DNA of 64,000 nt, taken from positions 8,229 to 72,228 of the forward strand of contig JBPCVC010000024.1 in assembly GCA_051010835.1 (NCBI GenBank), given 5' to 3'. This document shows positions 1,737-2,010 of the stretch, in pieces (position 1 is the first letter of the stretch; each line of letters starts with the position of its first letter). The position numbers and the translations under genes were made by a program. This DNA comes from Mariniblastus sp. GTDB taxonomy: Bacteria; Planctomycetota; Planctomycetia; Pirellulales; Pirellulaceae. The notes below the pieces were generated by a model. The model was not told the origin of the DNA. It worked only from the letters and a program-made list of their open reading frames with translations, and did not search any database.

Positions 1737-1791
1737 CTTGAGCGAGGTGTTCTCAGGGTTCAGGTTTTATTTATTTTTGATGGATGCAAAT

Positions 1792-2010
1792 ATGGTAGTC
1801 TCAATCGAGTATTGCGAGTCCTGAAACTATCTTCCTCAAGCTACCAGTTTGGCAGCGGTCATTAAGTCAGCTTTGGGTGCCGAGGTTCAATTGCTTTCAT
1901 CGAGTGGTGGTTGTTTTGAGGTGGTTGCCGATGGTGAACTAGTTTTCTCTAAGAACCGCGTCGGACGATTTCCTACCGATGAAGAAGTTTTAAGTGCACT
2001 TAACGGGTAG
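1792..2010 (+). CDS. SelT/SelW/SelH (Rdx) family selenoprotein, CxxU, 72 aa; in-frame TGA at 1822-1824 read as Sec (alternative in-frame ATG at 1780)
   Basis: Hand translation MVVSIEYCES(U)NYLPQATSLAAVIKSALGAEVQLLSSSGGCFEVVADGELVFSKNRVGRFPTDEEVLSALNG*; Rdx hallmarks IEYC, GG.FEV and FSK...GRFP flank the TGA in one frame; absent from the ORF track. Confidence 0.9.
1840..1856 (+). promoter_or_regulatory. Candidate bacterial SECIS hairpin of the SelW-like gene
   Basis: GCT-A-CCA-GTT-TGG-C-AGC stem-loop; loop G at 1847 is 23 nt after the UGA. Confidence 0.55.

What the first reader, a model, noticed from the sequence alone, without database searches (positions are those of the whole stretch)
1780..2010. 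Hidden SelW/Rdx selenoprotein missed by the ORF track
The sequence shows ATG 1792 to TAG 2010 with one in-frame TGA (1822-1824) exactly at the second position of the Rdx CxxC/CxxU motif (YCES-U). The 61 codons after it carry the Rdx signature GG.FEV..DGELVFSK..GRFP. TGA is a normal stop elsewhere in the window, so this is site-specific recoding. It implies a Sec-using planctomycete.
Basis: partly seen in the sequence, partly recalled or inferred. Interest (0 to 1): 0.8.

Follow-up and report, generated by a model that had tools for sequence, protein, structure and literature searches.

The report
SelW-like selenoprotein gene with SECIS
This is a real 72-codon gene for a small SelW/Rdx-type redox protein whose in-frame TGA is almost certainly read as selenocysteine with the help of a hairpin just downstream. 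The family has been known in marine bacteria since 2005, so the find is correct but ordinary.

Summary
ATG 1792 to TAG 2010 (+) has one in-frame TGA (1822-1824) at the second redox position of a CxxU motif (YCES-U).

Evidence that this is a real selenoprotein gene:
- **Family match:** the read-through product passes the curated cut-offs of Pfam Rdx, TIGR02174 and the NCBIfam equivalog NF041051.
- **Fold:** the AlphaFold2 model (pLDDT 95) superposes on solved bacterial Rdx structures at TM 0.92-0.94.
- **Conserved TGA:** all 90 distinct orthologues recovered, from Planctomycetota, Desulfobacterota, Gemmatimonadota and other phyla, keep TGA at this codon.
- **Conserved start:** 78 of the 79 checked have a start codon ten codons upstream of the TGA.
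- **SECIS:** a 17-nt hairpin (1840-1856, loop G-U-Y, starting 15 nt after UGA) shows compensatory and wobble-to-wobble covariation and frozen synonymous sites. This fits a bacterial SECIS.
- **Machinery:** the genome encodes selA, selB, selD (a fusion protein) and tRNA-Sec(UCA).
- **TGA as stop:** TGA closes about a quarter of long frames genome-wide.

Pseudogene, sequencing error and codon reassignment are effectively excluded.

[quoted passage not shown] Gene callers truncate this gene to a 53-residue stub. Selenium incorporation itself remains untested.

The parts
1792..2010 (+). Complete SelW-like/Rdx selenoprotein coding sequence: 72 codons plus TAG stop, with Sec at codon 11.
   Evidence: The start at 1792 is supported because 78 of 79 loci examined have ATG/GTG/TTG exactly 10 codons before the TGA; the exception is L097. 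Some orthologues lack the upstream in-frame ATG.
1813..1824 (+). Redox motif C-E-S-U (Cys8-x-x-Sec11), at the end of strand beta1 and in the loop that leads to helix alpha1.
   Evidence: translation; model: strand 2-8, helix 14-28. Cys8 and the TGA are invariant in 90 sequences, while the two residues between them vary freely.
1822..1824 (+). In-frame UGA read as selenocysteine.
   Evidence: The TGA is invariant in all 90 distinct orthologous sequences. 45 of the 61 genomes searched (the window's own plus 60 relatives) carry a full-length orthologue with exactly one TGA and none carries a Cys form.
1840..1856 (+). Bacterial SECIS hairpin GCUACCA-GUU-UGGCAGC: a 7-pair stem with one A.C mismatch and a GUU loop at 1847-1849. 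It starts 15 nt after the UGA.
   Evidence: 88.5% of cells are paired against 25-50% in slid controls, and 3 pairs show changes on both sides. Pair 21:33 joins two wobble positions (CG 47, UA 25, UG 7, GC 5, unpaired 3); third-position entropy is 0.09, 0.40 and 0.00 bits at codons 18-20, against about 0.9-2.0 bits at the other codons.
1849..2010 (+). The 53-aa stub ORF (TTG 1849) that gene callers report instead of the real gene.
   Evidence: Orthologues in public collections are called as 52-53-aa fragments, some named 'selT/selW/selH-like putative selenoprotein'.
1906..1923 (+). G-G-C-F-E-V motif (residues 39-44). The GG turn precedes strand beta3. Cys41 is specific to this clade; most other phyla have Val, and some Pirellulaceae have Lys or Arg.

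Best explanation
Window 1792-2010 (+) is a functional gene for a 72-residue SelW-like (Rdx family) selenoprotein of a Pirellulaceae planctomycete.

Proposed mechanism (inferred from the established bacterial Sec pathway):
1. SelD, here fused to a pyridine-nucleotide-disulphide oxidoreductase domain, makes selenophosphate.
2. SelA converts Ser-tRNA-Sec(UCA) to Sec-tRNA-Sec.
3. During translation, the mRNA hairpin at 1840-1856 (stem GCUACCA/UGGCAGC, loop GUU), 15 nt downstream of the UGA at 1822-1824, is bound by SelB.GTP.Sec-tRNA-Sec.
4. SelB then delivers selenocysteine to the UGA in competition with release factor 2.

The product is a minimal thioredoxin-like domain (beta1-alpha1-beta2-beta3-beta4-alpha2). 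Its Cys8-x-x-Sec11 pair lies at the end of beta1 and in the following loop. It most likely cycles between a selenol/thiol and a selenenylsulfide, acting as a thiol-disulfide oxidoreductase; its physiological substrate is unknown.

Shown here: the gene, family, predicted fold, UGA conservation, hairpin covariation, presence of the Sec machinery, and normal stop use of TGA.
Inferred: actual Sec insertion, SelB binding to this hairpin, and the redox function.
For: - **Family:** Pfam Rdx E 6.6e-18, NF041051 91.2 bits (cut-off 88), TIGR02174 58.1 bits (cut-off 34.2). PDB sequence hits to Rdx proteins 2fa8, 2ljk, 3dex and others, with the query's Sec position aligned to the second Cys of their CxxC.
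- **Fold:** AF2 pLDDT 95, pTM 0.81. Foldseek top hits are all Rdx crystal structures at TM 0.92-0.94 and rmsd about 1 A, followed by MIEN1 and mouse SelW.
- **UGA conservation:** metagenome orthologues keep TGA within CAS-U, CST-U and CSM-U variants. All 91 loci where the motif was found (of 100 examined, several phyla) have TGA and none has Cys. 45 of 61 genomes searched (own plus 60 relatives) have a full-length orthologue with exactly one TGA.
- **SECIS:** covariation and slid controls; frozen synonymous sites, with Ser19 always AGU-type and Leu20 always YUG.
- **Machinery:** selA 588 bits, selB 369 bits, selD 258 bits, tRNA-Sec 67.4 bits, all above their cut-offs; ARAGORN gives tRNA-SeC with anticodon TCA.
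- **TGA as stop:** TGA closes 26% of long frames genome-wide.
- **Other selenoprotein candidates in the genome:** further UxxC/CxxU genes with similar hairpins.
Against: - There is no direct evidence of selenium incorporation or of expression.
- The hairpin alone is thermodynamically unremarkable: folding of 54-91 nt windows gives z-scores near 0. In this genome it also carries an A.C mismatch at pair 22:32.
- RNAalifold on only five sequences preferred a shifted pairing. Support for the hairpin comes from the 87-sequence covariation analysis, in which coding constraints are a partial confounder.
- No Rfam family matched.
- The biochemical function of bacterial Rdx proteins is not established.
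Confidence: 0.95

Rival explanations
1. The TGA is a recent nonsense mutation or an assembly or sequencing error in a former CxxC Rdx gene, making this a pseudogene.
For: A single in-frame stop in an otherwise intact small ORF is what a fresh pseudogene would look like. The genome is a draft of 134 contigs.
Against: TGA stands at this codon in all 90 distinct orthologous sequences from many independent assemblies and phyla, and no TGT/TGC form was found. The 10 upstream codons are under purifying selection, with S-I-E-Y-C invariant or nearly so. A co-varying hairpin follows the codon.
Confidence: 0.01
2. TGA is generally reassigned in this organism, for example to Trp or Gly as in genetic codes 4 or 25, so the codon is not selenocysteine.
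For: One database entry (P0002) was predicted with W at this position, MDANMVVSIEYCESWNYL....
Against: TGA closes 633 of 2399 long frames in the genome and 9 of 33 in the window, including the neighbouring gene. The codon aligns with the redox Cys of CxxC homologues. A tRNA-Sec with anticodon UCA and selA, selB and selD are all present.
Confidence: 0.01
3. UGA mostly terminates here, and the biologically relevant product is the 53-aa ORF from TTG 1849 as gene callers annotate it, or no protein at all.
For: Public gene calls give 52-53-aa products. Sec insertion in bacteria competes with termination and depends on selenium supply (general knowledge).
Against: The stub would lack strand beta1, the CxxU site and part of helix alpha1 of a compact single domain. 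The residues before 1849 are the most conserved in the protein. The internal TTG/Leu codon is conserved as part of the hairpin, and no ribosome-binding context is evident.
Confidence: 0.03

Closest known systems
Bacterial SelW-like selenoproteins (CxxU; Pfam PF10262 Rdx, TIGR02174 CXXU_selWTH, NCBIfam NF041051), catalogued by Zhang, Fomenko and Gladyshev in the Sargasso Sea (PMC1088965), in bacterial genomes (PMC1794560) and in GOS (PMC2398784)
   Same: It shares the length class (about 70-80 aa) and the CxxU motif directly after strand beta1. It has the GG-x-FEV and FSK...RFP motifs and a SECIS with a G in a small apical loop directly downstream of the UGA. It is almost exclusively Sec rather than Cys, and it is of marine origin. 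It scores above the curated equivalog cut-off.
   Different: Nothing essential differs. The Pirellulaceae/Mariniblastus clade carries an extra Cys in GGCFEV and a clade-specific gene order: BI-1, Lon N-terminal-domain protein, Rdx, GNAT, M42 peptidase.
Solved bacterial Rdx (Cys-form) proteins: Agrobacterium Atu0228 (2fa8), Pseudomonas (2obk, 2oka), Bordetella (2ojl), Streptomyces SAV_2001 (3dex), Vibrio (2p0g)
   Same: The fold is the same: TM 0.92-0.94, rmsd about 1 A, 22-34% identity. The CxxC position aligns with CxxU.
   Different: Those proteins carry Cys, not Sec, and are 20-30 residues longer in the deposited chains. They belong to a different Rdx subfamily. A second Rdx-family gene, here with CPT-U, lies elsewhere in this genome; which subfamily it belongs to was not tested.
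Mammalian selenoprotein W (mouse SelW, 2npb) and MIEN1 (2ljk)
   Same: Rdx family, thioredoxin-like fold, and a CxxU (SelW) or CxxC (MIEN1) motif at the same place.
   Different: The structural match is weaker (TM 0.68-0.77). Eukaryotic SelW uses a 3'-UTR SECIS and SBP2/eEFSec, whereas this gene has a hairpin inside the coding sequence read by SelB.
E. coli fdhF SECIS, the paradigm for SelB-dependent recoding (from general knowledge)
   Same: Both have a stem-loop immediately 3' of the UGA within the reading frame, a compact apical hairpin with G-U in the loop, and a fixed short spacing to the UGA.
   Different: This hairpin is only 17 nt with a 3-nt loop (or 5 nt if the closing A-U pair opens) and has no evident bulged U. 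The spacer is 15 nt, compared with about 11 nt to the minimal fdhF hairpin. Binding to the planctomycete SelB is untested.

Membership tests
Rdx / SelW-like family (PF10262, TIGR02174, NF041051) | Profile-HMM score above the curated cut-offs | tested here: met
   PF10262 65.1 bits (cut-off 22.6), TIGR02174 58.1 (34.2), NF041051 equivalog 91.2 (88).
Rdx / SelW-like family (PF10262, TIGR02174, NF041051) | CxxC/CxxU redox motif directly after strand beta1, before helix alpha1 | tested here: met
   Cys8-Glu-Ser-Sec11. The model has strand 2-8 and helix 14-28. The motif aligns with the CxxC of 2fa8 and 2ljk.
Rdx / SelW-like family (PF10262, TIGR02174, NF041051) | Thioredoxin-like beta1-alpha1-beta2-beta3-beta4-alpha2 fold | tested here: met
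   The AF2 model has pLDDT 95 with elements in that order. The top 21 Foldseek hits are Rdx crystal structures, nearly all at TM 0.91-0.94 (one chain at 0.85). This is a predicted structure, not a solved one.
Bacterial selenoprotein gene (SelB/SECIS-dependent UGA recoding) | In-frame UGA at a position held by Cys or Sec in homologues and conserved among orthologues | tested here: met
   90 of 90 distinct orthologous sequences have TGA. 45 of 61 genomes searched have an orthologue with exactly one TGA.
Bacterial selenoprotein gene (SelB/SECIS-dependent UGA recoding) | SECIS stem-loop immediately downstream of the UGA with a conserved G in a small apical loop | tested here: met
   Hairpin at 1840-1856. 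The loop G is invariant and the loop U nearly invariant. 88.5% of cells are paired, 3 pairs are compensatory, and slid controls give 25-50%. Synonymous sites are frozen.
Bacterial selenoprotein gene (SelB/SECIS-dependent UGA recoding) | Genome encodes selA, selB, selD and tRNA-Sec | tested here: met
   All four score above their curated cut-offs in G000. ARAGORN confirms tRNA-SeC with anticodon TCA.
Bacterial selenoprotein gene (SelB/SECIS-dependent UGA recoding) | UGA is otherwise a stop codon in the organism | tested here: met
   TGA closes 633 of 2399 long frames genome-wide. The adjacent gene ends in TGA at 1734-1736.
Bacterial selenoprotein gene (SelB/SECIS-dependent UGA recoding) | Selenium is physically incorporated at the UGA position | not testable with these tools
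   This needs 75Se labelling or mass spectrometry.

The most novel reading that the evidence does not exclude
In the Pirellulaceae/Mariniblastus clade this SelW-like protein may have become a three-centre redox relay. The clade-specific Cys41 sits in the GGCFEV turn. By beta-alpha-beta topology this turn should lie next to the Cys8-x-x-Sec11 loop, so Cys41 could act as a resolving or glutathionylated cysteine. The protein might also work with the always-adjacent Lon N-terminal-domain protein and BI-1/YccA-like membrane protein in a proteostasis or membrane-stress module. This adjacency persists down to about 36-45% identity of the Lon-domain neighbour but is absent outside the clade.
Probability: 0.1. 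Interest if true: 0.35.

Novelty: already known. Interest (0 to 1): 0.12.

Why it matters
The main value is for annotation. Standard gene callers cut this gene to a 53-residue stub lacking its active site. As a result, selenoproteomes of marine planctomycete MAGs are systematically under-reported. The locus adds one well-supported example of a minimal 17-nt SECIS embedded in codons 17-22, with clear wobble-to-wobble covariation across phyla. It also shows that this Pirellulaceae genome is a committed Sec user with a dozen or so candidate selenoproteins. It opens no new biological question: the family, its CxxU motif, its SECIS type, its marine abundance and Sec use in Planctomycetes are all published. 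This scan has also already logged hundreds of equivalent finds.

Tried and rejected
- **Rfam:** a search of 1600-2200 at E up to 10 gave only chance hits (sR46, DUF3800-XI). No curated model covers this SECIS.
- **Single-sequence folding:** folding the region downstream of the UGA gave z-scores near zero and inconsistent MFE structures among orthologues.
- **RNAalifold:** on five sequences it proposed a register-shifted helix (cols 15-21 with 25-31) without covariation. I rejected it in favour of the 19-25/29-35 helix, which the 87-sequence count supports.
- **Start at ATG 1780 (MDANM...):** rejected. Close orthologues have no start codon there (L020 has ACG GGT ACA AAT before a GTG start), and 78 of 79 loci examined have a start exactly 10 codons before the TGA.
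- **Promoter and terminator scan:** nothing useful. The one terminator-like hit lies inside the coding sequence.
- **Functional inference from synteny:** the BI-1/LonN/Rdx/GNAT/M42 order is confined to the Pirellulaceae clade and absent in other phyla, so it was not used for function.
- **Genome-wide CxxU/UxxC plus hairpin screen:** it is noisy (341 candidates from 1758). Only those with clear family hits were kept.

Full report
**Observation**

The + strand carries ATG at 1792, TAG at 2008-2010 and a single in-frame TGA at 1822-1824, which is codon 11. Read through, the frame gives MVVSIEYCES-U-NYLPQATSLAAVIKSALGAEVQLLSSSGGCFEVVADGELVFSKNRVGRFPTDEEVLSALNG, 72 residues. A plain ORF list shows only a 53-aa stub from TTG 1849. 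The gene sits in the roughly 370-nt space between a Lon N-terminal-domain gene (1029-1736, ending in TGA) and a GNAT acetyltransferase gene (2108-2680).

**Family and fold**

- With Cys standing in for Sec, the product passes the curated thresholds of Pfam Rdx (65.1 bits against 22.6), TIGR02174 CXXU_selWTH (58.1 against 34.2) and the NCBIfam equivalog NF041051, 'SelT/SelW/SelH family (seleno)protein' (91.2 against 88).
- By sequence it finds the solved Rdx proteins 2fa8, 2ljk (MIEN1), 3dex, 2obk, 2ojl, 2p0g and 2oka. In the two alignments printed (2fa8, 2ljk) its Sec position aligns with the second Cys of their CxxC.
- An AlphaFold2 model built on 60 orthologues has pLDDT 95 and pTM 0.81, with the order beta1(2-8)-alpha1(14-28)-beta2(31-37)-beta3(42-46)-beta4(49-53)-alpha2.
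- Its 21 best Foldseek matches in the PDB are all bacterial Rdx crystal structures, nearly all at TM 0.91-0.94 and rmsd about 1 A. They are followed by MIEN1, mouse SelW and then thioredoxins.

**The TGA is a conserved coding position**

- The word-index protein search returned only one full-length call (P0002, predicted with W at the TGA) and four 52-53-aa stubs.
- I fetched the DNA of the stubs. Each has the missing N-terminus upstream in frame, with TGA at the same codon and varying neighbours (CAS-U, CST-U, CSM-U), and the same gene order.
- A scan of one genome per species returned 80 loci from Planctomycetota (Pirellulaceae, Mariniblastus, Rubripirellula), Desulfobulbales, Gemmatimonadota, Acidobacteriota, KSB1, Zixibacteria, Eisenbacteria and others.
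- Of the 100 loci examined (these 80 plus 20 from the search of relatives), the motif was found in 91, and all 91 have TGA; none has Cys. 78 of the 79 genome-scan loci checked have a start codon exactly ten codons upstream.
- Of the 61 genomes searched (the window's own plus 60 relatives), 45 carry a full-length orthologue with exactly one TGA. The hits without a stop are weaker matches to a second Rdx subfamily.
- Across 90 distinct sequences, codon 11 and Cys8 are invariant, while the two residues between them vary freely.
- This rules out a sequencing error or a recent nonsense mutation.

**The recoding signal**

- Fifteen nucleotides after the UGA lies GCUACCA-GUU-UGGCAGC (1840-1856).
- On 87 distinct sequences aligned without gaps, this helix is paired in 88.5% of cells, against 25-50% when the 3' arm is slid by 1-3 columns. 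Three of its seven pairs show changes on both sides.
- Pair 21:33 joins the wobble base of the Ala17 codon to the wobble base of codon 21. It reads C-G 47 times, U-A 25, U-G 7, G-C 5 and is unpaired only 3 times. Protein coding cannot explain this pattern.
- Third-position entropy is 0.09, 0.40 and 0.00 bits at codons 18-20, compared with about 0.9-2.0 bits at the other codons. The loop G is invariant and the following U nearly so.
- In this genome the stem has one A.C mismatch (pair 22:32). Such mismatches are common in the Pirellulaceae copies.
- Single-sequence folding is not informative, with z-scores near zero, and Rfam has no model for the hairpin.
- The geometry (a small apical loop with G, close behind the UGA, inside the reading frame) is that described for bacterial SECIS elements (PMC1088965).

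**The machinery**

- The window's own genome has 5.35 Mb in 134 contigs and is 94% complete.
- It encodes selA (588 bits), selB (369 bits, full length of the model), selD (258 bits) and a tRNA-Sec (67.4 bits; ARAGORN gives tRNA-SeC with anticodon TCA). All are above their curated cut-offs.
- selD is a 740-aa fusion of a Pyr_redox_2 domain with the AIRS/AIRS_C selenophosphate synthetase core, and it has no in-frame stop.
- TGA is an ordinary stop: it closes 633 of 2399 long frames genome-wide and 9 of 33 in the window. The recoding is therefore site-specific.

**Mechanism**

SelB.GTP.Sec-tRNA-Sec binds the hairpin as the ribosome reaches the UGA and inserts Sec at residue 11. The resulting Cys8-x-x-Sec11 pair, at the end of beta1 and in the loop that follows in a minimal thioredoxin-like domain, most likely cycles through a selenenylsulfide as a thiol-disulfide oxidoreductase. 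Sec insertion, SelB binding and the redox role are inferred from the established pathway and family. No substrate is known for bacterial Rdx proteins.

**Context**

The order BI-1/YccA-like, Lon N-terminal-domain protein, Rdx, (GNAT), M42 peptidase is kept throughout the Pirellulaceae/Mariniblastus clade. It persists even where the Lon-domain neighbour is only 36-45% identical, but it is absent from the other phyla. It is therefore lineage-specific gene order and not evidence for function. The clade also has Cys at GG-C-FEV, where most others have Val.

**Comparison with what is known**

[quoted passage not shown] They were noted to have very few Cys homologues (PMC1088965, PMC2398784, PMC1794560).
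- Full Sec machinery and selenoproteins in planctomycetes were described in 2016 (PMC4807772).
- NCBI and JGI both have labels for the family.
- Earlier notes of this scan list 352 equivalent finds. They agree with this reading but are not independent evidence.

**Verdict**

The gene is real, and the selenocysteine reading is as well supported as sequence analysis allows (confidence about 0.95). It is an ordinary member of a long-known family, so interest is low.

Noticed in passing
G000:C48:12058-12387 (-), outside the window: A second Rdx-family gene has an in-frame TGA in a C-P-T-U motif (…IKIIHCPT-U-QSYIPKVASYAAAIRDRF…GSRGQFDVLVNDQLV…). It scores Pfam Rdx E 4.2e-6 and has a GU-containing hairpin (GUAGCG-AGUUA-CGCUGC) downstream. 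The equivalent weaker hits in many relatives carry no stop, so they appear to be Cys forms; whether they are the same subfamily was not tested.
   Followed up: partly
G000:C86:3641-4549 region (locus L011 1387-3609, -), outside the window: selD is a 740-aa fusion. The N-terminal part is a pyridine-nucleotide-disulphide oxidoreductase domain (Pyr_redox_2), followed by the AIRS/AIRS_C selenophosphate synthetase core. There is no in-frame stop, so it is not itself a selenoprotein.
   Followed up: partly
G000 contigs C16, C119, C26, C21, C63, C20, C30, C121, C98, C17, C38 (outside the window): A crude screen (TGA in UxxC/CxxU context, open frames on both sides, hairpin with a loop G) gives at least 11 further candidate selenoprotein genes. 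Eight were scanned against Pfam: a DsbD-like protein with a W-U-PTC thioredoxin domain, TlpA/AhpC-TSA-like proteins on C119 (DW-U-PPC) and C63 (W-U-AGC), a thioredoxin (G-U-PPC), a Prx-like protein, an HMA-domain protein on C98 (GMT-U-GGC), an ArsC-family protein, and an EF-hand plus AhpC-TSA/deiodinase-like protein (C-LT-U). Three were not scanned: C26 and C21 (DW-U-PPC, same motif as C119) and C121 (NMT-U-GGC, motif like C98). Conservation of these TGAs was not tested.
   Followed up: partly
window 264-3973 (+): The gene order BI-1/YccA-like (264-986), Lon N-terminal-domain protein (1029-1736), Rdx selenoprotein, GNAT Acetyltransf_3 (2108-2680), M42 peptidase (2690-3973) is conserved across Pirellulaceae/Mariniblastus genomes but not in other phyla that carry the same selenoprotein.
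   Followed up: yes
locus L077 3001-3390 (+) (Gemmatimonadetes MAG JAGWBP010000004.1): One orthologue has an open frame of 130 codons. After the Rdx domain it continues into a Cys-rich C-terminal tail (…CGVRCCCREKVRCCRNRDQGGEADECCTEGTCCEAAGDD…). Whether this extension is real or a lost stop was not checked.
   Followed up: no
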